Below the pieces are notes generated by a model. That model had not been told where the DNA came from, did not search any database, and was given only the letters and a program-made list of their open reading frames with translations. DNA of 10,114 nt from IMG/VR virus record IMGVR_UViG_2690316097_000011; one strand, written 5' to 3'. Origin of the DNA: a virus. Lineage: Duplodnaviria > Heunggongvirae > Uroviricota > Caudoviricetes. Shown here piece after piece: positions 1,011-9,931 of the stretch (positions are counted from its first letter, which is position 1; each line of letters opens with the position of its first letter). A program made the position numbers and the translations under genes.

Positions 1011-1301
1011 TTAACTGTTTTTGCCTGGATACTGTCTTCGAGAATGCACAATATTTACTACTTCTATGCTTGATGCTGTTACTCGGTAAAGGATGATGTA
1101 GTTAGGATGAGTTACAATTTCACGAAGACCAAGAACTCGCTCGCTTGGAGGATACAGGTAAGGATGCTCTGTGAGCGGCAAAACGGATGTTTCAATTCGA
1201 ATTTTCATTCTGCGTGCTGCCGCGGGATTTTCTTTAGCTATGTAGGCTACGATCTGGCGCAAATCATCACGAGCAGATGGTAGCCATAAAACGGGTAACA
1301 T
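1011..1301 (-). CDS. parE: ParE/RelE-family type II toxin
   Basis: 96 aa. Translation MLPVLWLPSARDDLRQIVAYIAKENP...IILYRV has the ParE/RelE-like length and motif pattern. Start overlaps the upstream gene stop (TAATG), typical of toxin-antitoxin pairs. Confidence 0.85.
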   Translation of the reverse strand: MLPVLWLPSARDDLRQIVAYIAKENPAAARRMKIRIETSVLPLTEHPYLYPPSERVLGLREIVTHPNYIILYRVTASSIEVVNIVHSRRQYPGKNS

Positions 1302-1495
1302 TATTCACCTCTGTGAGTTGCAGCAGCAATTTGGGCAATAATTTGTTCCATTTCCGCCATTACCTCATCATGCGGAATCGCCGGGCGGGGATCCGCGAGG
1401 CTTGCTGCTACTTTGGCCCGCAGCCATTCGTTGTAACTATTTTCTTGCTCAACTGTCTCAAATTCTGAAACCATTGGGGAAAGGACTGTACTCAT
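1301..1495 (-). CDS. paaA: PaaA-like antitoxin (ParE-associated antitoxin)
   Basis: 64 aa. Motif LSPMVSEFETVEQENSYNEWLRAKVAASLADPRPAIPHDEV resembles, from memory, PaaA2 antitoxins of the prophage-borne paaR2-paaA2-parE2 systems of E. coli O157. Good Shine-Dalgarno (AGGAGA, 8 nt spacer). Immediately upstream of the toxin. Confidence 0.75.
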   Translation of the reverse strand: MSTVLSPMVSEFETVEQENSYNEWLRAKVAASLADPRPAIPHDEVMAEMEQIIAQIAAATHRGE

Positions 1496-1514
1496 TTTAC
1501 ATATCTCCTCTGAT

Positions 1515-2015
1515 TTAGGCGCGACGGCCTTTTTGTGCAGCTAACCACCGCGCAACCGTACGATCCATTGATTCTTTTTTATCTTTCATCTCCTGAAGCA
1601 TGTGTTCTTGATCTTCTTTCGGAAAAGCTCTGAACGTATGGATTAAATCTCGTTCCATCGGCTCTACGGCAAACGGTAGTTCATCCTCTGTTTGTTCTGT
1701 GTCTGCTGGTAATGCGACTATGTTATCTTGCTGTGGTTCTCGACAATACATCCTTGCAATTTGCAGCAAATCTACCATGTCTGGCCTGATTGACTCAGGG
1801 GGAACTTTCAGTAAGCCAGCAAACTTTAGAACAGCCTCAAGGTTTAGTGGGGTTTGACCATTTAGGTAGTGACTTACCGCCCCTTGTGTTGAAAACCCCA
1901 TAATTTCCGCCGCACGTTCCTGAGTCAATCCCAACTGAGATTTCTTTGCCATCCAGATTTCTTTCAGTCTTCTGGCGGCGTTGAGGTCGGTGTCTGACAA
2001 TGATTTTCTTTTCAT
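1515..2015 (-). CDS. lambda-CI-like prophage repressor (HTH, PaaR-like), without an S24 peptidase domain
   Basis: From the ATG at 2015: MKRKSLSDTDLNAARRLKEIWMAKKSQLGLTQERAAEIMGFSTQGAVSHYLNG... aligns by eye with the lambda CI N-terminal DNA-binding domain. The C-terminal 80 aa show no Ser/Lys autocleavage motifs. The ORF can extend to a GTG at 2045. Stop lies 18 nt before the antitoxin start. Confidence 0.85.
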   Translation of the reverse strand: MKRKSLSDTDLNAARRLKEIWMAKKSQLGLTQERAAEIMGFSTQGAVSHYLNGQTPLNLEAVLKFAGLLKVPPESIRPDMVDLLQIARMYCREPQQDNIVALPADTEQTEDELPFAVEPMERDLIHTFRAFPKEDQEHMLQEMKDKKESMDRTVARWLAAQKGRRA

Positions 2016-2027
2016 ACATCCAATTCT

Positions 2028-2090
2028 AATAAGATTGCTAATCACTTTGAAATAGCATCACTATTTACTTTTAAAAATAACAGTGCTATT
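2028..2090. promoter_or_regulatory. OR-like operator region in the divergent repressor/cro-like intergenic space
   Basis: AATAGCATCACTATT at 2051-2065 and AATAACAGTGCTATT at 2076-2090, plus a weaker AATAAGATTGCTAAT at 2028-2042. Centres are 23-25 bp apart, echoing lambda OR1-3. Same half-site as the left operator pair. Confidence 0.55.
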
Positions 2091-2126
2091 AATTATGCAT
2101 TGGTAACACATCACATAGGGCGGATT

Positions 2127-2390
2127 ATGAATCTTGGAGAATATTTGCATCATTTTCATATAACCCAGAGTTCATTTGCTGAGATTGTTGGCGCATCCCA
2201 AGGGATGGTCAGCCACGTTATAACGGGGCGTGCAAAACTTACAGGAGAAAAAATATTACGTTGGTGTGAAGCAACGGGATGGGTGGTGACCCCACATGAG
2301 ATTGACAGTAAAACCTACCCCAACCCAACTGACGGCTTGCCTGCTGAGTTTCAGGCTAACACACAACCATCGGCGGGGGTTGATTCATGA
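2127..2390 (+). CDS. Cro-like / YdaS-family HTH regulator
   Basis: 87 aa from the ATG at 2127 (ORF opens at a TTG at 2100). HTH-like segment QSSFAEIVGASQGMVSHVITG. Divergent from the repressor across the operator region. Stop overlaps the next start (ATGA). Confidence 0.75.
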   Translation: MNLGEYLHHFHITQSSFAEIVGASQGMVSHVITGRAKLTGEKILRWCEATGWVVTPHEIDSKTYPNPTDGLPAEFQANTQPSAGVDS

Positions 2391-2812
2391 AAATCAAGCA
2401 TGAACACATCCGCATGGCGATGAAAGCCTGGGCGCATCCGGACGGTGAAAAAGTTCCGGCAGCTGAAATAACCAGGGTTTATTTCGAACTGGGAATGACG
2501 TTTCCGGTTCTGCATAACGACAGCAAGCACAACACGCTTTATCTCAACACCCAAAAGATTTTCCGTTGGCTGGATAAAGACACCCCTGACGCTGTTGAAA
2601 AAATTCAGGCGTTGTTACCTGCGATCGAAAGGGCAATGCCACCTCCGCTGGTGGCTCGAATGCGCAGCCACAGTTCAGCTTATTTTCGGGAACTGGTGGA
2701 GACGCATGAACGACTGGTGAGAGACGCTGATGATTTTGTCGCAGTGGCAATCGCCGGTTTCAATCAGATGAACCGTGGTGGCCCGGCAGGAAATGCTGTG
2801 GCAGTACATTGA
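2387..2812 (+). CDS. CII-like / YdaT-family protein
   Basis: 141 aa beginning MKIKHEHI and ending ...AVH, as YdaT-family proteins do. Occupies the cII position between the cro-like gene and the replication genes. Confidence 0.75.
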   Translation: MKIKHEHIRMAMKAWAHPDGEKVPAAEITRVYFELGMTFPVLHNDSKHNTLYLNTQKIFRWLDKDTPDAVEKIQALLPAIERAMPPPLVARMRSHSSAYFRELVETHERLVRDADDFVAVAIAGFNQMNRGGPAGNAVAVH

Positions 2813-2883
2813 CTGACAATAGCCATATCGAATCGCTCCCGGCAACTCGTGAGTAAAAAGATTCGGTATCAGAAGAGGTGAGT

Positions 2884-3948
2884 ATGGCTAACGCCTGGCT
2901 CAGATTATGGCATGACATGCCAAATGACCCTAAGTGGCGAACAATTGCCAGGGTGTCAGGGCAGCCAATTGCAACAGTGATGGCAGTGTATATCCACCTC
3001 CTGGTGAGCGCGTCACGAAATGTCACGCGAGGTCACATTGATGTCACGACAGAAGATTTGGCAAGTGCGCTCGACGTGACAGAAGAGGTAATTGATTCAA
3101 TTTTGCAGACGATGCAGGGGCGGGTACTTGATGGTGATTTAATCACTGGATGGGAAAAACGCCAGGTGCTTAAAGAGGACAACGGCAATATTTCGCAAAC
3201 CGCAAAATCTCCTGCAGAGCGCAAGAGGGCGCAGCGAGAGAGGGAAAGAAAGCGGGAACAAAATGGCGATTGTCACGGCGCGTCACGAAATGTCACGCAC
3301 ATGTCACGACGAGTCACGACAGATACAGATAAAGATACAGATAAAGAAGATCAAAACACTATGGTCCATGGCGTAAAAAACGCCACGAACCAGGCAGGGG
3401 ATGTTCAGACCGTCAATCCTGGTCAGCCAGCAGGCTCGACACCGGAAGCCGATTCAGCGTATGCGCTGAAAGCCGATTCGGGCGCTGTGCAGCAGGTGAT
3501 GACCGCAAGGCCGGAGCAATCACTCCAACTGCAGCAGCCTGAAGCCGATTCCGCCATTCAGCGGGAAGCCGATCGGGTAGCCCCGGAAAACACCGGGCAG
3601 CCTGTGGGACGAGTGGATTATCCGGATGTGTTCGAACAGGTCTGGCGGGAATACCCGTTGCGTGCCGGGGCAAACCCGAAGAAATCCGCATTCAGTGCCT
3701 GGAAGGCCAGATTGCGCGAGGGGGTGCCACCAGAGACCATGCTGGATGGTGTGAGGCGTTACGCGAGATACCTGGCGGCGACCGGGAAAGCGGGAACGGA
3801 ATTTGTTCAGCGAGCGACGACGTTTTTTGGGCCGGACCGGAATTTTGAAAACCCCTGGTTGCTCCCGGTAAGCGGCACGAACAACCAGCGTTGTGTGAAT
3901 CATATTTCTGAACCGGATACCGAAATTCCGCCGGGATTCAGGGGGTGA
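2884..3948 (+). CDS. replication initiator / replisome organiser (lambda O-like, YdaU/DUF1376-type N-terminus)
   Basis: 354 aa from the ATG at 2884 (GAGG Shine-Dalgarno 5 nt upstream; GTG at 2878 possible). N-terminus MANAWLRLWHDMPNDPKWR, a low-complexity charged linker, and a C-terminal domain. Sits directly upstream of the DnaC-like gene and contains the iteron arrays. Confidence 0.8.
   Translation: MANAWLRLWHDMPNDPKWRTIARVSGQPIATVMAVYIHLLVSASRNVTRGHIDVTTEDLASALDVTEEVIDSILQTMQGRVLDGDLITGWEKRQVLKEDNGNISQTAKSPAERKRAQRERERKREQNGDCHGASRNVTHMSRRVTTDTDKDTDKEDQNTMVHGVKNATNQAGDVQTVNPGQPAGSTPEADSAYALKADSGAVQQVMTARPEQSLQLQQPEADSAIQREADRVAPENTGQPVGRVDYPDVFEQVWREYPLRAGANPKKSAFSAWKARLREGVPPETMLDGVRRYARYLAATGKAGTEFVQRATTFFGPDRNFENPWLLPVSGTNNQRCVNHISEPDTEIPPGFRG
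3009..3048. repeat. iteron cluster 1 (GTCACG core with 10-11 bp phasing) inside the initiator gene
   Basis: GTCACG at 3012, 3022 and 3043, GTCAC at 3032, and an inverted CGTGAC at 3075. A 20 bp block CGCGTCACGAAATGTCACGC is repeated at 3279-3298. Confidence 0.55.
3271..3346. repeat. iteron cluster 2 plus adjacent GATACAGATAAA tandem repeat; putative phage origin
   Basis: GTCACG at 3272, 3282, 3292, 3303 and 3313 (spacing 10, 10, 11, 10 bp), immediately followed by AGATACAGATAAAGATACAGATAAAG at 3321-3346. Confidence 0.6.
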
Positions 3949-3954
3949 TGTGGC

Positions 3955-4701
3955 ATGAAAAACATTGCGGCAGCCGGGGTTCTTGAACGTATTCACAGAC
4001 TTGCACCACAGGGGGCGGTTCCACCGTACCGGACGGTGGAGGAGTGGCGGGAATGGCAACTTGCTGAAGGACGAAAACGCAGCGAGGAGATTAACCGCCA
4101 GAATCGCCAGTTGCGGGTGGAAAAAATCCTGAATCGTTCGGGCATCCAGCCTCTGCACAGCAAATGCTCGTTTGCGAATTATCAGGTGCAGAACGACGGG
4201 CAAAAATACGCGCTGAGCCAGGCCAAATCCATAGCTGACGAACTGATGACCGGGTGCACGAATTTTGTGTTCAGCGGTAAAACCGGCACCGGGAAAAATC
4301 ACCTTGCAGCGGCGATGGGTAACCGGCTGATGGCGAAGGGGCGCAGCGTGATTATCGTCACCGAGTCTGATGTCATGAGCGTGTTGCATGACAGCTACGA
4401 CAACGGCAAATCCGGTGAAAAATTTTTACAGGAGCTTTGCGGGGTTGATTTGCTGGTCCTGGATGAAATAGGCATTCAGCGGGAGACGAAAAACGAGCAG
4501 GTGGTATTGCACCAGATAATTGATCGCCGGACAGCATCACTGTGCAGTGTCGGGATGTTAACAAACCTGAATCATGCCGCAATGAGCACGCTTCTTGGTG
4601 AGAGGATTATGGACCGCATGACCATGAACGGTTGTCGGTGGGTGACGTTTAACTGGGATAGCTGGCGTTCAAATGTCAGCTTTCCGGGAGTTGTGAAGTA
4701 A
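3955..4701 (+). CDS. DnaC-like helicase loader (IstB-like AAA+ ATPase, lambda P analogue)
   Basis: 248 aa. Walker A GKTGTGKNHLAAAMG and Walker B LLVLDEIG. Shine-Dalgarno AGGGGG upstream. Confidence 0.9.
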   Translation: MKNIAAAGVLERIHRLAPQGAVPPYRTVEEWREWQLAEGRKRSEEINRQNRQLRVEKILNRSGIQPLHSKCSFANYQVQNDGQKYALSQAKSIADELMTGCTNFVFSGKTGTGKNHLAAAMGNRLMAKGRSVIIVTESDVMSVLHDSYDNGKSGEKFLQELCGVDLLVLDEIGIQRETKNEQVVLHQIIDRRTASLCSVGMLTNLNHAAMSTLLGERIMDRMTMNGCRWVTFNWDSWRSNVSFPGVVK

Positions 4702-4722
4702 TTTTTGTTGGAGGATGTTTTA

Positions 4723-5448
4723 ATGGAAACTGTATTTGACGCACTGAAAGCACTGAAAAGAGCCTCTTCACATGTGGTGGCGTCCCGCCTTGGAATCAGC
4801 CGTGAAGATGCGGTCAACGAACTGTGGAAACTGAAGCGCCGTGGTGAAGCGGATAACAAGGGTTCGATGTGGTGGCTGATTCAGGCTGGTGAAAGTGAAC
4901 CAGTGTCACCGGTACCGAAAGTGACAGCGCAAATGCTGACTGAGGCGATTGAACAACATGGCCCACAAACGGCGGATGAGCTGGCACTGATGTTCGGGAT
5001 TACCTCCCGCCGGGCGAATTCATCGCTGGCCATGGCAATCAGCAAAGGGCGTCTGATTCGCGTGAATCAGGGCGGTAAATTTCGGTACTGCATACCGGGC
5101 GCTGATTTACCGGCAGAGCCGAAAGCCGCATCCATAGCGGAAACGGATGGTAAAGTCTTTCCTCAGCCAGCAGGTGTTGCGTTACCGGTACAGGAAGCTG
5201 CAACACAGGAAGAAATTAAAACAGAAACTGTGGCGGACATTGTGCAGTCGTTGCCATCGTTCACCGAAACGCAAGCGGATGACCTGGTTTTACCATCGCT
5301 GCATATGGCAAACCGCGAACTGCGTCGGGCGAAAAGTCATGTCCAGAAGTGGGAGCGTGTCTGCGCCGCGTTGCGGGAGCTGAACAAGCACCGGGATATT
5401 GTTCGACAGATTGTCGATTCCTCCGGTCGTATTGTGTCGGAAAAGTGA
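4723..5448 (+). CDS. hypothetical phage protein with two winged-helix-like segments
   Basis: 241 aa from the ATG at 4723 (GGAGG Shine-Dalgarno, 8 nt spacer; ORF opens at a TTG at 4705). No catalytic motifs recognised. Confidence 0.7.
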
Positions 5449-5463
5449 TTGCCGGGGGCGCTT

Positions 5464-5705
5464 ATGGCAAAAGTATTTACACAGGAAGAGCGGGAAAAAA
5501 TTAAGGGGCAGGTTGTTGAACTCGTACGCCAGAGTGGGCGCGAGACGTTACGACAACTGGAAGCTAAAACCGGGGCGACAAGATATTTAATAAGCGTTCT
5601 CGCCAGAGAGCTGGTTGCCAGTGGGGATGTATACAACTCTGGCTACGGGTTATTCCCGTCTGAACAGGCTCGTAAGGACTGGCAAAACGCCCGCAAAAAA
5701 CTCTC
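5464..5705 (+). pseudogene. 5' portion of a phage gene interrupted by an IS3-family remnant
   Basis: Starts MAKVFTQEEREKIKGQVVELVRQSGRETLRQLEAKTGATRY... and reads into IS-derived sequence after ...ARKKLS at about 5705. A paralogous 3' portion resumes at 6002. Confidence 0.6.
5497..5705. repeat. about 209 bp imperfect direct repeat, copy 1
   Basis: Aligns by eye with 6002-6210 at roughly 90% identity (the last 110 bp nearly identical). Both copies end ...CGCAAAAAACTCTC. Confidence 0.8.
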
Positions 5706-6001
5706 GAACGGTGGCTGAACTGGAATCTGAAATTCTGCAACTGCGTAAGGCGTTAAATGAAGCTCGCCTTGAGCGAGATATATTAAAAAAAGAACAAATG
5801 GTAGTGTCCGCTATTGCCAGTACACCTCAAAGAGATAATCGGGAAGCGCCTTCACTGATCGAAAGTTGATTTTCAGGAACCGTTCTGACAGCTTCGGCTT
5901 TGAACTCTTTAGAGTAACGTTGGGTTTTTCTGCTCATTATTAGCTCCTTCTGATGCCATTCTATTTCAGGAAGGAGTGTCCGTTAAACTCAGGCTACCTC
6001 A
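5706..6001. mobile_element. scrambled IS3-family (IS600-like) remnant made of two oppositely oriented fragments
   Basis: Minus strand 6001 to 5830: terminal repeat TGAGGTAGCCTGAGTTTAACGGACACTCC, then a Shine-Dalgarno and ATG at 5937 encoding MSRKTQRYSKEFKAEAVRTVPENQLSISEGASRLSL (OrfA N-terminus), then stop. Plus strand 5706-5793 encodes RTVAELESEILQLRKALNEARLERDILKK (OrfA leucine zipper), followed by a second terminal-repeat-like end at 5800-5829. Confidence 0.75.
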
Positions 6002-6210
6002 AAAATTAAAGGGCAGGTTGTTGAACTTGTACGTCTGAGCGGTCGCGAGACGTTGCGGCAACTGGAAGCCAAGACAGGTGCGACAAGATATCTGATGAGT
6101 GTTCTCGCCAGAGAGCTGGTTGCCAGTGGCGATGTATACAACTCTGGTTACGGGTTATTCCCGTCTGAACAGGCGCGTAAGGACTGGCAAAACGCCCGCA
6201 AAAAACTCTC
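6002..6210. repeat. about 209 bp imperfect direct repeat, copy 2
   Basis: Paralogous to 5497-5705. Begins immediately after the IS terminal repeat at 6001. Confidence 0.8.
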
Positions 6211-6391
6211 AAGGGCAAATCTGAAGAAACCATCTGTGGTTGATCCTGACCTTATCTGGTCATTACCAGACGGAGAAATACGCCGCTACGACAGACATCA
6301 GAACATAATCTGTCGCGAGTGCCGGAAGAGTGAAGTTATGCAGCGTGTACCGGCTTTCTATCAGGGTGATTTTCAGGAGGCGGTACTGTGA
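6002..6391 (+). pseudogene. 3' portion of the IS-interrupted phage gene (no 5' end or start codon)
   Basis: In-frame continuation KIKGQVVELVRLSGRETLRQLEAKTGATRY...ICRECRKSEVMQRVPAFYQGDFQEAVL. An upstream in-frame TAA at 5984-5986 lies inside IS sequence. Confidence 0.6.
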
Positions 6392-6805: not shown

Positions 6806-7019
6806 TCAAGGTTATTTCTGGAAGTCAAGTCGTGAGTGATGAGGACTAACAAATACGGTGAACTCGATAAAGAGATTCAGGACGAACTGGAGGCCAGGAA
6901 TGATTGACAAATCACCAAGTGAGTTCAGCTACAAAGATTTATTGTCATAACGGGTTATGAGATCGACTTGGTGCGTGATATTCTTCGGGCCAGTTTGCTA
7001 TGCGCCACCATGAGATGTT

Positions 7020-8852
7020 ATGGCCCGCATGTTTGATACATTAGGATTTTACATTATGAATGTGCAACATTTTGATTTTTTTACAGATAATGAGTTTTCT
7101 AATCTGGAAAGATATCAAACTTGTAAAGCCATGGCCAAAGGTTATGCGGGCAATTACAAAACCGGGCAGTCAAGGTTGATGCATGCCCGCTCATACTGCT
7201 TCAGCATCGTAGCTGCATATTGGGATACCCTTGCAAAAAAGCAAAAAAGCAGCATTAAAATGAGGGCAGTACCGCACACTGTTTACATAGAAGACATTCC
7301 ATGTGATGCACGCGAGCTCGCTGAACGAACAGGTGAGCTTATTGCTCAATTTCCGGCGGAGGACGCTGGATATCTGATTGGGTCAATTTATACGGTAATG
7401 CTGCCATCCGCTTACCGTTCGGAATTGGGGGCTTACTATACCCCCCCACCTTTGGTAGCGCGTCTCTTGGACCTGGCTGAAAAGTCTGGTGTTGATTTTT
7501 CTCATGCATCGGTTATTGATCCTGCGTGTGGTGGCGGTGCATTTTTGGCACCAGTAGCCATTCGAATGTTAAAAAAAGACAAGGGGTCTTCCCCTGAATG
7601 GATGTTGAGGAGAATCAGTCGTCGTTTAAAGGGGATAGAAATCGATCCATTTGCGGCTTGGATGAGTTTGGTATTGCTCGAATCTGTACTAATGCCACTA
7701 TGTGTAAAGGTAAAACGTAGATTGCCTGAAGATACAATTATTGTTGCTGATGCGCTTCAGCAAGATAAATTTTCTGGTTATGATCTTGTGGTAGGGAATC
7801 CGCCTTACGGACGTGTCACTCTCGATATTAAAACGAGAGAAAAATATTCTCGTTCGTTATTTGGTCATGCAAATCTATATGGATTGTTCACCGACTTAGC
7901 TGTTCGCATGGTTAAAGAGAAAACAGGAGTTATTGCATTTCTTACGCCAACTTCTTTTCTTGGTGGGCAGTATTTCACCGCGCTGCGAACCCTTTTGACC
8001 GAAAAAACTACTCCGTATGCCCTTGATTTCGTCACTGACAGGGATGGGGTCTTTGACGATGTTCTCCAGGAAACAATGTTGACAGCATTCAAGGCGGGAG
8101 AACATAAAGTTCGGGCCCAGGTATCCTCACTTGTCCCTAAGGGGTTGAACAAAGCAAAAATTGAGAAAATAGGTAATGTTGATATAGAAAAAGGTGGAGC
8201 AACGTGGCTTTTGCCACGCGTTAAAGATGATGCCTGTTTTCTTAATGTATTAAAACAGATGTCTACGCGTTTAGCTGATCTGGGATACTCAGTCTCTACA
8301 GGTCAGTTAGTCTGGAATCGATTTAAGTCGCAGTTGCGTACGACGAAAGGAAAAAATAGCTACCCATTAGTCTGGGCGGAATCAATAACTTCAGCTGGTT
8401 TTCGTTTTAGTGCAGACAGAAAAAATCATGTTCCCTATATCGATATAACCCCACAACAGGGTTTCCTTGTGACAAAATCTGAATGTGTGCTTGTTCAGCG
8501 GACAACATCGAAGGAACAGGACAGAAGGATTTTAGCGGCAATTTTACCTCAGGGATTTATAGATGAAACTGGTGGCGTAGTAGTTGAAAACCATATTAAT
8601 ATTGTATATTCAAACGGATTGTTCTCTGCGGTTCGCCCTGATGTTATTGATATGCTACTTAATTCGCATGTTGTCGATCGGGCGTTCAGGTGTATAAGCG
8701 GAAGTGTTGCTGTTTCGGCCTATGAATTGAATTCAATCCCGTTGCCTTCTCTGGAGCAGGTGATGGAGATTCAATCGTTAATTGATGCTGGCGTCCACAG
8801 ACGGATTATTGAGAGAACTATCGCTGGTTTCTATGGAGTGATGATTGCATGA
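7020..8852 (+). CDS. gamma-class N6-adenine DNA methyltransferase (Eco57I/PstI-like family)
   Basis: 610 aa. Motif X (GAYYTPPPLV), motif I (VIDPACGGGAFL) and motif IV (VVGNPPYGR) occur in the gamma-class order, with a roughly 300 aa C-terminal region as a probable target-recognition domain. Alternative ATGs at 7029 and 7056. About 27% GC at the 5' end. Confidence 0.9.
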   Translation: MARMFDTLGFYIMNVQHFDFFTDNEFSNLERYQTCKAMAKGYAGNYKTGQSRLMHARSYCFSIVAAYWDTLAKKQKSSIKMRAVPHTVYIEDIPCDARELAERTGELIAQFPAEDAGYLIGSIYTVMLPSAYRSELGAYYTPPPLVARLLDLAEKSGVDFSHASVIDPACGGGAFLAPVAIRMLKKDKGSSPEWMLRRISRRLKGIEIDPFAAWMSLVLLESVLMPLCVKVKRRLPEDTIIVADALQQDKFSGYDLVVGNPPYGRVTLDIKTREKYSRSLFGHANLYGLFTDLAVRMVKEKTGVIAFLTPTSFLGGQYFTALRTLLTEKTTPYALDFVTDRDGVFDDVLQETMLTAFKAGEHKVRAQVSSLVPKGLNKAKIEKIGNVDIEKGGATWLLPRVKDDACFLNVLKQMSTRLADLGYSVSTGQLVWNRFKSQLRTTKGKNSYPLVWAESITSAGFRFSADRKNHVPYIDITPQQGFLVTKSECVLVQRTTSKEQDRRILAAILPQGFIDETGGVVVENHINIVYSNGLFSAVRPDVIDMLLNSHVVDRAFRCISGSVAVSAYELNSIPLPSLEQVMEIQSLIDAGVHRRIIERTIAGFYGVMIA

Positions 8853-9931
8853 ATCTGCCTGTTGTTCCCCCATTGAATGTTATCCGGGAAAGATTACAAT
8901 TAATTTTCCCTGAAGGGACTGAGAATCGTGGATATTTAATTCGGGAAATAGCTGCAAAAACAATTTTTGTCATGTTTTATGCTGGTGCGGTTGAGGGGCT
9001 GGGGCGATGGATAAGGCCCAGCCAGGTTGTAAGTATGGGAGATTCGCAGGCTGCTCTTACTGATGATGCGTCCAGAGAAAGCTGGGTAAAGATGACTTTC
9101 TCTAAACAAAAGATAAGGCCTGCTGATGCATGGTATGCGGAAAATACGCGTGAGCCAATACGTGATGAAACTATAAAAAATGGCCTAATACCTTGCAATG
9201 CAATTGTTGAGCGTAAAGGTATACCCACCACATCCTCTCGTCCTCGTTACAGTTTGAATCGCTCTTTTGCAGCACTCTTTGATGCCGGGCTTGAAGGAGA
9301 TTCGCTGCTGAGTGCAATAAGTTCCTGGCAAGAAAATCATTTGAACAAAGCCGCTCTTGCTAGGTTGCGTTTATTGAAATCAGGGGCAGTGATTGCTGCT
9401 GATGCCGTAGTCGTCACTTTCCCAAATGGAGAGAAGAGAACTTTAGCTCCGGGCCCGTCAAGTACAATAGCTAAGGCCGTCATCGAAGTTTTTGCTCCTA
9501 ATTTTCTTAAGAATCCAACTGTGCTCTGGTTGTCTGAATCCGGGAATAAAGTTGTTGCTCAGGATGATGTATTGGCAAAAGCATTGGGGCTGAATATTGA
9601 TGCCTCAAAAGCACTTCCAGATATTATTTTGATTGATTTGGGAGAGGACCGAACGGGTTCGGACATGCTTGTAGTTTTCACTGAAGTAGTTGCGACAGAT
9701 GGGCCTATAAACAGGGAACGAAAAGTTACTCTCACTCATTTGGCTATTGACGCTGGGTTCAGCGAGAAAAATCTTGCATTCCTTACGGCATTTATGGACA
9801 GAAGTGCTCTGCCTTTTAAAAAGGCAATACCAGAATTGGCGTGGGGATCTTATGCATGGTTTGCTTCTGAACCGGAGCACTTAATTGATCTTCGGGATGG
9901 TTATCCGGTAAAGATCAGCCAGAGAAAATGA
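8849..9931 (+). CDS. putative restriction endonuclease partner (possibly BsuBI/PstI family); function unverified
   Basis: 360 aa, translationally coupled to the methyltransferase (ATGA overlap at 8849-8852). Size and two-domain layout fit BsuBI/PstI-type endonucleases. A candidate nuclease core PDIILIDLGED...LVVFTEVVATDGPINRERK is only weakly PD-(D/E)xK-like. Confidence 0.55.
   Translation: MNLPVVPPLNVIRERLQLIFPEGTENRGYLIREIAAKTIFVMFYAGAVEGLGRWIRPSQVVSMGDSQAALTDDASRESWVKMTFSKQKIRPADAWYAENTREPIRDETIKNGLIPCNAIVERKGIPTTSSRPRYSLNRSFAALFDAGLEGDSLLSAISSWQENHLNKAALARLRLLKSGAVIAADAVVVTFPNGEKRTLAPGPSSTIAKAVIEVFAPNFLKNPTVLWLSESGNKVVAQDDVLAKALGLNIDASKALPDIILIDLGEDRTGSDMLVVFTEVVATDGPINRERKVTLTHLAIDAGFSEKNLAFLTAFMDRSALPFKKAIPELAWGSYAWFASEPEHLIDLRDGYPVKISQRK

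What the first reader, a model, noticed from the sequence alone, without database searches (positions are those of the whole stretch)
3009..3346. Helically phased GTCACG iteron arrays embedded in the initiator gene: putative origin of replication
Five GTCACG cores at 3272-3318 are spaced 10-11 bp apart, so all face one side of the helix, and are followed by a tandem GATACAGATAAA repeat that may be the unwinding element. A second cluster at 3012-3048 shares a 20 bp block with the first. This parallels lambda ori lying inside the O gene, with the initiator probably binding its own coding sequence. The repeats also force a duplicated peptide (ASRNVT...VTT) into the protein.
Basis: seen in the sequence. 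Interest (0 to 1): 0.6.

Follow-up and report, generated by a model that had tools for sequence, protein, structure and literature searches.

The report
Phage replication origin inside initiator gene
Two arrays of a 6-base motif spaced one DNA turn apart, followed by an easily melted A-rich stretch, lie inside a prophage replication-initiator gene and are very probably that phage's replication origin: the design known from phages lambda and SPP1, here in a common E. coli prophage family for which I found no published origin.

Summary
All nine GTCACG hexamers in the 10-kb window lie within 307 bp of one gene. There are four direct cores at 3012-3048 (one is GTCACA) plus an inverted one at 3075. 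Five more lie at 3272-3318, spaced 10/10/11/10 bp. They are followed by four GATACA/GATAAA units, which are the least stable duplex in the gene, and then a 13-bp-stem palindrome.

The gene (2884-3948) encodes a modular initiator with three parts: a winged-helix N-domain resembling the DnaD N-terminal domain, a disordered linker, and a C-terminal domain. A DnaC-like loader gene follows.

About 27 diverged loci from Gamma- and Betaproteobacteria keep both arrays at the same gene offsets. Synonymous sites inside the cores are frozen (0.15 bits) while those elsewhere are near-saturated (1.73 bits). The hexamer is read in three reading frames. Distant relatives have changed the core in both arrays together, to GTAACG or CGAACGC. 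This is DNA-level selection tied to the N-domain.

The best reading is a lambda/SPP1-type origin embedded in the initiator gene. Binding and replication remain untested. It is a new member of a known kind and of moderate interest.

The parts
2884..3948 (+). Initiator gene (354 aa). It encodes an N-terminal winged-helix domain (aa 1-95), a basic helix (aa 110-130), a disordered linker (from about aa 129) and a C-terminal domain.
   Evidence: ORF. phrog_3729 'replication initiation protein', E = 3e-250, full length. AlphaFold2 model. The gene is present full length in 1647 of 5426 complete E. coli genomes.
3012..3048 (+). Iteron array 1: four cores at 3012, 3022, 3032 (GTCACA) and 3043, spaced 10/10/11 bp. 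It lies in the codons for the end of helix 3 and the loop/strand before the HTH (A43-T55).
   Evidence: The array sits at gene offsets 129/139/149/160 in about 27 diverged loci. Synonymous sites in the cores are frozen.
3075..3080 (-). Inverted iteron core (CGTGAC on the + strand), 26 bp after array 1. It spans codons D64-V65-T66 at the start of the predicted recognition helix.
   Evidence: It is present at gene offset 192 in 15 of the 27 GTCACG-class loci listed (window and L002 included), so it is less conserved than the direct cores.
3272..3318 (+). Iteron array 2: five GTCACG cores spaced 10/10/11/10 bp, in the codons of the disordered linker (C130-T145).
   Evidence: Three to five cores sit immediately upstream of the A-rich tract in all 25 relatives listed. 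In an otherwise variable linker, the only conserved residues are the ones spelled by the cores: H131, S134, R135, V144 and T145.
3319..3361 (+). A-rich, purine-skewed tract with four GATACA/GATAAA hexamers (3322-3345). This is the putative DNA unwinding element. It encodes (DT/DK)n.
   Evidence: GC is 0.30 and AT skew 0.64 at 3320-3359. The least stable 40-mer of the gene starts at 3323 (dG -43.2, against a window mean of -54.2, sd 4.0). A (GATAAA)n-type tract follows array 2 in every iteron class. Its length varies from 4 to 13 units among E. coli strains.
3362..3392 (.). Palindrome TGGTCCATGGCGT-AAAAA-ACGCCACGAACCA (13-bp arms) flanking the A-rich tract. This is also where modules are exchanged.
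   Evidence: (I7). As ssDNA it folds with z = -3.1. It is retained with a compensatory T:A to A:T swap in PhiR5_2, which has an unrelated N-domain and unrelated iterons. Its role is inferred by analogy with the imperfect inverted repeat that I read to the right of the lambda A-rich tract.
3955..4701 (+). DnaC-like helicase loader gene. It is the likely partner of the initiator's C-terminal domain.
   Evidence: NF009043 at 499 bits, DnaC equivalog model E = 1.9e-88, IstB_IS21 AAA+ domain, phrog_50.

Best explanation
This is the prophage's origin of replication, embedded in the gene of the protein that fires it.

Inferred mechanism. The N-terminal winged-helix domain of the 354-aa initiator binds the GTCACG cores. 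With one core per helical turn, the monomers line up along one face of the DNA at array 2 (3272-3318) and build a nucleoprotein complex. With negative supercoiling, and probably with rightward transcription coming from the cro side, the complex melts the adjacent GATA(C/A)A tract (3319-3361). The C-terminal domain then brings in the DnaC-like loader (3955-4701) carrying host DnaB.

Array 1 (3012-3048, plus the inverted core at 3075) is an auxiliary set of the same sites, threaded through a sequence-tolerant loop of the DNA-binding domain. Its likely roles are to raise the local initiator concentration, to loop or cooperate with array 2, or to autoregulate.

What is shown: the anatomy, DNA-level selection on the cores, linkage to the N-domain, concerted change of both arrays, and the low duplex stability of the tract.

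What is inferred: which protein binds, unwinding, loader recruitment, and the role of array 1.
For: 1. Gene identity and neighbourhood. The layout is cI-like repressor, cro-like gene, YdaT-like gene, initiator, DnaC-like loader.

2. Selection acts on the DNA.
- The hexamer is read in three frames: V-T, x-S-R and G/C-H (coordinates, translation).
- Across 23 colinear sequences from different genera, third-position entropy at conserved four- or six-fold codons is 0.15 bits inside the cores and 1.73 bits outside (Mann-Whitney p = 4e-5).
- Examples: V47 is GTC in 23/23, T48 is ACG in 23/23 and G50 is GGT in 23/23. R49, which lies between cores, is free (1.76 bits).

3. Both arrays keep the same gene offsets (129/139/149/160 and about 370-430) in about 27 loci from Gamma- and Betaproteobacteria. 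Array 2 always abuts a (GATAAA)n tract.

4. Concerted change. An unbiased k-mer count finds the same top repeated 6-mer in both array zones of each locus: GTCACG in 27 loci, GTAACG in 4 and CGAACG/GAACGC in 4.

5. Modularity.
- The N-domain and arrays are joined to an unrelated C-terminus and a primase-helicase gene in Pseudomonas phage phita81A.
- The same C-terminus joined to other N-domains carries other repeats in the same place (PhiR5_2; an Stx2c phage).
- The junction lies at gene nt 466-470, the downstream edge of the A-rich tract (H87/H88).

7. The tract is the least stable duplex in the gene.

8. Precedents. Lambda has iterons plus an AT-rich tract in the middle of gene O (PMC7466680). 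In SPP1, gp38 binds direct repeats next to an AT-rich DUE inside gene 38 (PMC6316719; sequence).

9. In the whole 46-kb genome of phage Tritos, the only GTCACG clusters are these two.
Against: - There is no experimental evidence here for binding, unwinding or origin activity.
- The N-domain matches the replisome-organiser family only below threshold (PF09681 E = 0.008; TIGR01714 E = 0.015). It shows no sequence similarity to lambda O or SPP1 G38P.
- Foldseek against the PDB gave nothing significant.
- I could not identify which residues read the hexamer. The class-discriminating differences outside the iteron-coded loop are diffuse.
- The distance between the two arrays varies among relatives, so a fixed looping geometry is unlikely.
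- Five distant relatives show no array 1, so its function is uncertain.
- One of the two peptide patterns used to collect the genome loci was [AG]S[RQ]NVTRGH. This favours the GTCACG class. It does not explain the frozen synonymous sites.
- The relatives share ancestry and are not independent observations.
Confidence: 0.8

Rival explanations
1. The arrays are initiator (or other regulator) binding sites that serve regulation only: autorepression by a transcription roadblock inside the gene, copy-number control or handcuffing, or titration of incoming phage initiators. The true origin would lie elsewhere.
For: Array 1 has no adjacent AT-rich tract and lies early in the gene, where bound protein could block rightward transcription. 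Plasmid iteron systems use extra iterons for control (established knowledge). The distance between the arrays is not conserved.
Against: Array 2 is always directly joined to a low-stability A-rich tract, which is the signature of an unwinding element rather than an operator. No other iteron cluster exists in a complete phage genome of this type. The layout matches mapped origins in lambda and SPP1 (PMC6316719). Regulation by array 1 is compatible with the main explanation and does not replace it.
Confidence: 0.1
2. The sites are bound by a different protein (a host factor, or a neighbouring phage regulator such as the YdaT-like or Cro-like protein), or they mark a recombination hotspot or module boundary, and are not read by the initiator itself.
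For: Binding was not tested. The module junction does lie next to the element. The palindrome at 3362-3392 is shared between initiators with unrelated N-domains.
Against: The arrays co-occur with the N-domain in phages whose neighbouring genes differ: no YdaT-like gene, and a primase-helicase in place of DnaC, in phita81A. The iteron class differs between elements that appear to share a host genus. For example, GTCACG (L092, L109) and CGAACGC (L115) are both attributed to Pseudomonas, which argues against a host factor. Initiators with other N-domains carry other repeats at the same place.
Confidence: 0.06
3. The repeats are a by-product of a repeated peptide (ASRNVT..VTT) selected at the protein level, or of a recent internal duplication, and have no function as DNA.
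For: The two clusters share a 21-nt block and a peptide.
Against: The same hexamer is read in three reading frames. Synonymous positions in the cores are invariant across genera, while other synonymous sites in the same domain are near saturation. In the disordered linker, only the residues spelled by the cores are conserved. An RNA-level role is also unsupported: folding 3260-3400 gives z = -0.9 and there is no Rfam match.
Confidence: 0.02

Closest known systems
Bacillus phage SPP1 oriL inside gene 38 (replisome organiser G38P/gp38)
   Same: The origin lies inside the initiator's own gene, just after the N-terminal DNA-binding domain. It consists of short direct repeats about 10-11 bp apart, followed by an AT-rich repetitive DUE (PMC6316719; coordinates 35801-36151 within gene 35578-36348, from PMC5615212). 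A helicase-loader gene follows. The initiator has a second set of binding sites.
   Different: There is no detectable sequence similarity between the proteins, and the match to the replisome-organiser N-domain family is subthreshold. SPP1's second site (oriR) is about 13 kb away and intergenic. Here the second array is 260 bp upstream, inside the DNA-binding-domain codons, and no distant cluster exists. The loader here is DnaC-like, not G39P-like.
Phage lambda ori inside gene O (also Stx phages 933W and P27)
   Same: Same genomic context: repressor, cro, cII-position gene, initiator, loader. The iterons lie in the middle of the initiator gene, between the DNA-binding and loader-binding parts. 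They are followed by an A-rich, purine-skewed tract and then an imperfect inverted repeat. Extra iterons add residues to the protein (13 aa in Stx phages, PMC7466680; here 21 nt = 2 iterons = 7 codons).
   Different: Lambda iterons are 18-19-bp imperfect inverted repeats about 20-24 bp apart (annotation; PMC7466680). Here the cores are 6 bp, non-palindromic and 10-11 bp apart. There is no similarity to O in either half of the protein and no Phage_rep_O hit. Lambda has a single array. Lambda's partner is P, not a DnaC homologue.
Iteron-controlled plasmid replicons (R6K, P1, F and pPS10-type Rep proteins)
   Different: Plasmid iterons are about 17-22 bp, spaced about two turns apart and intergenic, and are read by two-winged-helix Rep proteins. 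Here a single winged helix is predicted, the cores are spaced one turn apart, and the arrays are inside the coding sequence. No plasmid Rep family was matched.

Membership tests
Lambda-type origin (ori within gene O) | The origin lies inside the initiator gene, between the DNA-binding and loader-interaction parts | tested here: met
   Array 2 and the A-rich tract fall in the disordered linker at aa 129-160. The module junction is at gene nt 466-470.
Lambda-type origin (ori within gene O) | Iterons of 18-19 bp with internal dyad symmetry, about two helical turns apart | tested here: not met
   The cores are 6 bp and non-palindromic, with weakly conserved flanks, at a 10-11 bp period. Compare the lambda annotation and sequence.
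Lambda-type origin (ori within gene O) | A/T-rich, strand-asymmetric tract directly after the last iteron | tested here: met
   GC 0.30 and AT skew 0.64. Least stable 40-mer of the gene. Conserved in 25 of 25 relatives.
Lambda-type origin (ori within gene O) | The initiator is homologous to lambda O (Phage_rep_O) | tested here: not met
   No Pfam hit. hhalign and BLASTP against lambda O found nothing.
Lambda-type origin (ori within gene O) | The initiator binds the iterons and the fragment supports initiator-dependent replication | not testable with these tools
   Needs EMSA or footprinting and a plasmid replication assay.
Replisome-organiser type origin (SPP1 G38P / oriL) | N-terminal domain of the Phage_rep_org_N family (PF09681 / TIGR01714) | tested here: inconclusive
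Replisome-organiser type origin (SPP1 G38P / oriL) | Short direct repeats plus an AT-rich DUE inside the organiser's own gene | tested here: met
   The SPP1 layout was read and is described in PMC6316719.
Replisome-organiser type origin (SPP1 G38P / oriL) | A second, distant organiser-binding region (oriR) | tested here: not met
   The whole Tritos genome has no other GTCACG cluster. Here the second array lies inside the gene, 260 bp upstream.
Replisome-organiser type origin (SPP1 G38P / oriL) | A dedicated helicase loader or helicase is encoded immediately downstream | tested here: met
   DnaC-like gene at 3955-4701. Relatives instead carry a primase-helicase. Phage Tritos has none annotated.
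Plasmid iteron replicons (Rep_3 / RepA-type) | A two-winged-helix Rep protein of a plasmid Rep family, with intergenic 17-22-bp iterons | tested here: not met
   No Rep family hit. A single winged helix is predicted. The iterons are intragenic 6-bp cores.

The most novel reading that the evidence does not exclude
Array 1 may be more than an auxiliary binding site. It may couple the site to the protein that reads it. The iteron DNA encodes the loop and strand (aa 43-55) immediately before the helix-turn-helix, and this is the one segment of the otherwise highly conserved N-domain that differs between iteron classes: RNVTRGHVDVT for GTCACG and NATERGRTQ for CGAACGC. If that loop contacts DNA, a change in the iteron would alter the binding site and part of the reading head at the same time. 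That would be a self-referential route to new origin specificities and to incompatibility between phages. My data cannot separate this from the loop simply being a tolerant place to park iterons.
Probability: 0.07. Interest if true: 0.8.

Novelty: new member of a known kind. Interest (0 to 1): 0.42.

Why it matters
This initiator gene is present full length in about 30% of complete E. coli genomes. Its N-domain occurs in prophages across Gamma- and Betaproteobacteria: 826 protein clusters matched.

I found no paper that describes its origin. None in the searched library contains the iteron strings, and the Eru papers on Stx-phage replication regions do not discuss origins.

The work gives a base-pair-level origin prediction. 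It also gives three natural specificity classes (GTCACG, GTAACG, CGAACGC) for swap experiments, and cores that can be destroyed by synonymous mutations. Together these make replication control and incompatibility of these lambdoid prophages directly testable.

Conceptually it confirms a known rule: origins sit in the linker of modular initiators, and the N-domain and origin move as one cassette. It does not reveal a new mechanism.

Tried and rejected
- **Homology to characterised initiators.** Profile comparison of the N-domain alignment with SPP1 G38P and with lambda O, and BLASTP of the C-terminal half against lambda O, found no similarity. A sequence search of the PDB with the profile returned nothing.
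- **RNA-level explanation.** There was no Rfam match in the window, and folding 3260-3400 as RNA was unremarkable (z = -0.9).
- **Promoter and terminator scan of 1400-4800.** Counts were at the level of the shuffles. The only notable item was the palindrome, which was called terminator-like on the minus strand.
- **Extended iteron consensus.** Beyond the 6-bp core the flanks are only weakly conserved. TGTCACGM with one mismatch is not enriched outside the gene.
- **Second, distant iteron cluster (an oriR analogue).** None was found in phage Tritos.
- **DnaA box.** TATATCCAC at 2989-2997 resembles one by eye, but the codons there are not conserved at the DNA level in relatives, so I dropped it.
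- **Specificity-determining residues.** An alignment sorted by iteron class gave only diffuse differences: an 8-aa insert after the wing and a different basic helix. I make no claim from it.
- **Literature.** Searches for GTCACG iterons, oriJ/Rac, replisome organiser origins and the exact iteron strings found no description of this origin.
- **First viral-contig scan.** It returned only relatives at 98-100% identity. They were useful only for within-species polymorphism.

Full report
**1. The observation**

GTCACG occurs nine times in the 10,114-base window, and every copy lies between 3012 and 3318. Shuffles give a mean of 3.3 across the whole window, and none of 200 reached nine. Nine random sites falling in one 307-bp span has a probability of about 1e-11 (my arithmetic).

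- Array 2 has cores at 3272, 3282, 3292, 3303 and 3313, spaced 10, 10, 11 and 10 bp.
- Array 1 has cores at 3012, 3022 and 3043, plus a one-mismatch copy (GTCACA) at 3032. That makes four units spaced 10, 10 and 11 bp. An inverted copy lies at 3075-3080.
- The two arrays share a 21-nt block, 3008-3028 = 3278-3298.
- Array 2 runs straight into four GATACA/GATAAA hexamers (3322-3345, D7).
- A palindrome with 13-bp arms follows at 3362-3392 (I7).

**2. The gene and its neighbourhood**

The repeats lie in an ORF (2884-3948, 354 aa) that matches PHROG 3729 'replication initiation protein' over its full length (E = 3e-250).

- The next gene (3955-4701) is a DnaC-like AAA+ helicase loader.
- Upstream lie a divergently transcribed cI-like HTH repressor, a cro-like gene and a YdaT-family gene. 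This is the lambdoid early-right operon layout.
- Near-identical genes occur in E. coli phages such as Tritos and, at full length, in 1647 of 5426 complete E. coli genomes.

An AlphaFold2 model of residues 1-160, built from a 70-sequence alignment, gives a confident helical/winged-helix domain at residues 1-95. The helices are 4-14, 16-25, 29-45, 56-63 and 67-77, followed by a beta wing. A basic helix spans 110-130, and the region from 129 to 160 is disordered.

Mapped on the model:
- Array 1 falls in the codons for the end of helix 3 and the loop/strand before the HTH (A43-T55).
- The inverted core falls on D64-T66, at the start of the recognition helix.
- Array 2 and the A-rich tract fall in the disordered linker.

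**3. Selection acts on the DNA, not the peptide**

The same hexamer is read in three frames (coordinates, translation):
- V-T at 3022, 3043, 3292 and 3313;
- x-S-R at 3012, 3282 and 3303;
- G/C-H at 3032 and 3272.

In an alignment of 20 diverged homologues, the invariant residues of this part of the N-domain are the ones spelled by the cores: S44, V47, T48, G50, H51, V54, T55, and V65, T66. In the otherwise variable linker, the conserved residues H131, S134, R135, V144 and T145 are also core-encoded.

I fetched 39 loci from one-genome-per-species contigs and compared 23 colinear sequences from different genera. Third positions of conserved four- or six-fold codons carry 1.3-1.97 bits of entropy outside the cores (mean 1.73). 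Inside the cores they carry 0-0.5 bits (mean 0.15; Mann-Whitney p = 4e-5). V47 is GTC in 23/23, T48 is ACG in 23/23, G50 is GGT in 23/23 and V54 is GTC in 23/23. R49, which lies between two cores, is free.

Caveat: one of the two retrieval patterns was the peptide [AG]S[RQ]NVTRGH. That enriches for this class, but it cannot freeze synonymous sites.

**4. Conservation of the architecture**

About 27 loci from Escherichia, Rahnella, Serratia, Superficieibacter, Pseudomonas, Bordetella, Acidovorax, Aquitalea, Chromobacterium, Stenotrophomonas, Gilvimarinus and others carry GTCACG at gene offsets 129, 139, 149 and 160. A further three to five copies lie 10-11 bp apart at about 370-430.

In all 25 listed, the last core is followed within 1-3 nt by a (GATAAA/GATACA)n tract of 20-40 nt. 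Where a linker insertion displaces array 2 (L100), the tract moves with it. Array 2 and the tract therefore form one unit.

Copy number changes in steps that keep the reading frame:
- The window and its close relatives have a 7-codon (21-nt, two-iteron) insertion in array 2 relative to most homologues.
- E. albertii has a 7-codon insertion in array 1.
- The hexamer tract has 4 units in the window, 5 in most E. coli copies and 13 in strain 2013C-3264.

**5. Concerted change of the two arrays**

In more distant homologues the core differs, and it differs in both arrays of the same locus.
- GTAACG: Pantoea, Enterobacter, Marinobacter and Sphingomonas loci.
- CGAACGC: four loci, with the loop peptide changing to NATERGRTQ.

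The (GATAAA)n-type tract persists in every iteron class.

An unbiased count of repeated 6-mers, made separately in the two zones, recovers the same top word in both zones of each locus. GTCACG tops 27 loci, GTAACG 4 and CGAACG/GAACGC 4. Five distant loci have no recognisable array 1 but keep a reduced array 2 and the tract. This suggests that array 2 plus the tract is the core element and array 1 is auxiliary (inference).

**6. Modularity**

- Pseudomonas phage phita81A has the N-domain (70% identity), both arrays and the tract. Its C-terminus is unrelated, and the downstream gene is a Toprim-DnaB primase-helicase rather than DnaC.
- Conversely, PhiR5_2 shares the window's C-terminal half (65% identity from residue 156) but has an unrelated N-domain and no GTCACG. 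It has two AAGGGGCTTC repeats in the N-domain codons, two inverted copies in the linker, and then (GAACAG)n.
- An Stx2c phage with the same C-terminal domain has its own 21-24-bp-spaced repeats in its linker.
- Homology between the window and PhiR5_2 begins at about 3360, and partial matches in E. coli genomes start at gene nt 466-470. The N-domain, both arrays and the tract therefore move together as one cassette.

**7. The unwinding element**

GC falls to 0.30 at 3320-3359, with a strong A-over-T skew. The 40-mer starting at 3323 is the least stable duplex in the gene by nearest-neighbour energies: -43.2 kcal/mol against a window mean of -54.2 (sd 4.0). It is the fourth least stable region in the 10 kb.

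Lambda's origin, read directly, has the same order: iterons, then an A-rich purine-skewed tract, then an imperfect inverted repeat.

The palindrome here folds better than all but 1 of 200 shuffles as single-stranded DNA (z = -3.1). In PhiR5_2 it keeps pairing through a T:A to A:T double change.

**8. Comparison with known systems**

The kind is well known.
- In lambdoid phages the origin (iterons plus an AT-rich tract) lies in the middle of gene O (PMC7466680).
- In SPP1, gp38 binds direct repeats next to an AT-rich DUE inside gene 38, and a second site, oriR (PMC6316719; oriL coordinates from PMC5615212 fall inside the gene annotated).
- SPP1's gene 38 sequence shows repeats about 10-11 bp apart (GAAACGACA / GAAAAAGACAC), followed by AACAATGATAAC repeats just after its N-domain. 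In repeat form this is the closest parallel.

The present element differs from lambda in having short, non-palindromic cores one turn apart and no O homology. It differs from SPP1 in having its second array 260 bp upstream, inside the DNA-binding-domain codons, rather than 13 kb away. A complete phage genome of this type has no other cluster.

**9. Novelty and verdict**

I found no paper that describes this origin. No paper in the library contains the iteron strings, and the papers on non-lambda replication regions of Stx phages do not treat origins. Subscription literature, such as reviews of phage replication modules, could not be searched.

I file this as a new member of a known kind. It is a solid, well-delimited origin prediction for a very common prophage replication module, with the dual intragenic arrays as a modest twist.

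Confidence that this is the origin, read by the N-domain, is about 0.8. Binding, unwinding, loader recruitment and the role of array 1 remain inferences. Interest: 0.42.

Noticed in passing
window 3362-3392; L003 about 2515-2546: A 13-bp-arm palindrome lies immediately after the A-rich tract. It is shared with PhiR5_2, whose N-domain and iterons are unrelated, and pairing is kept there by a compensatory T:A to A:T swap. The minus-strand scan calls it terminator-like. It may be the counterpart of the inverted repeat to the right of lambda ori, or a recombination joint.
   Followed up: partly
window 3446, 3470, 3542, 3566: There are four copies of (G/A)AAGCCGAT(T/C) in the linker downstream of the origin (peptide PEADS / KADS / PEADS / READR). 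All four are in the same reading frame, so DNA-level and protein-level selection cannot be separated. Copies are also present in PhiR5_2.
   Followed up: partly
window 3322-3345; L127 about 6940-7020; L005-L084: The GATA(C/A)A hexamer tract is length-polymorphic among near-identical E. coli copies: 4 units here, 5 in most, and 13 in strain 2013C-3264 (a 54-nt expansion encoding (DKDT)n).
   Followed up: yes
window 3292-3312; L086 gene nt about 150-180: Iteron copy number changes in 21-nt steps (two iterons = 7 codons = two helical turns). One such insertion is in array 2 of the window lineage, and another is in array 1 of E. albertii. This may explain the 10/11 alternation in spacing.
   Followed up: partly
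L105, L108 (gene nt 120-215): In the GTAACG class, the x-S-R reading frame would create a TAA stop codon. The first unit of array 1 stays GTCACA or similar, and the other units sit in the V-T frame with altered spacing. Here the coding frame limits how the iteron can evolve.
   Followed up: no
window 3874-3945 (aa 331-354): The C-terminal tail ...SEPDTEIPPGFRG matches the last 24 residues of the E. coli DnaT model (NF002770, E = 0.0016). The motif PD..IP.GFRG recurs at the end of homologues whose middle domains are unrelated. It may be a short docking motif for the loader or primosome.
   Followed up: no
L002 about 2958-2990, and L091, L093, L098, L100: Many relatives have CCCCCCTTAxCCCCCC followed by GGGGG directly after the GATAAA tract (encoding PPLPP..G). 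This could be a G/C clamp or hairpin bounding the unwinding element, or a protein motif. It is absent from the window.
   Followed up: no
L003 2187-2209 and 2439-2461; L130 872-976: Initiators with other N-domains but the same C-terminal domain have their own repeats at the equivalent places. PhiR5_2 has AAGGGGCTTC x2 in the N-domain codons and x2 inverted in the linker. The Stx2c phage has GTGCAnnAnnTTCAC-type repeats 21-24 bp apart. Two-site architecture may be general.
   Followed up: partly
L120, L122 (gene nt 300-420): In Serratia and Pantoea loci the N-domain is fused to a different C-terminal part whose sequence (YVYYV...VGIS.NPWAR) looks like a GIY-YIG motif. ACTACGTA repeats occur at the junction, and there are no GTCACG-type arrays.
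   Followed up: no
L129 (phage Tritos) 32105-33638; L128 (P. aeruginosa CP137943.1): Phage Tritos carries the initiator and both arrays but has no annotated DnaC-like gene after it. Two 50.9-kb circular P. aeruginosa 'plasmid' records are phage genomes that carry this N-domain and origin module.
   Followed up: partly
window 7020-9931: The prophage carries a Type II restriction-modification pair: an N6-adenine methyltransferase (610 aa, PADLOC MTase_II E = 1.8e-300) and a BsuBI/PstI-family endonuclease (360 aa).
   Followed up: partly
window 1011-1495 (minus strand); 5449-5718 and 6053-6391: A ParE-family toxin gene (1011-1301) has a small upstream ORF (1301-1495) that may be its antitoxin. 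Separately, two ORFs match the N- and C-terminal parts of DUF977, which suggests a split or interrupted gene.
   Followed up: no
one search hit list: Many database homologues are labelled 'partial' and sit on very short contigs (for example 1121 members on a 683-nt contig). This suggests that this multi-copy prophage gene often breaks short-read assemblies.
   Followed up: no
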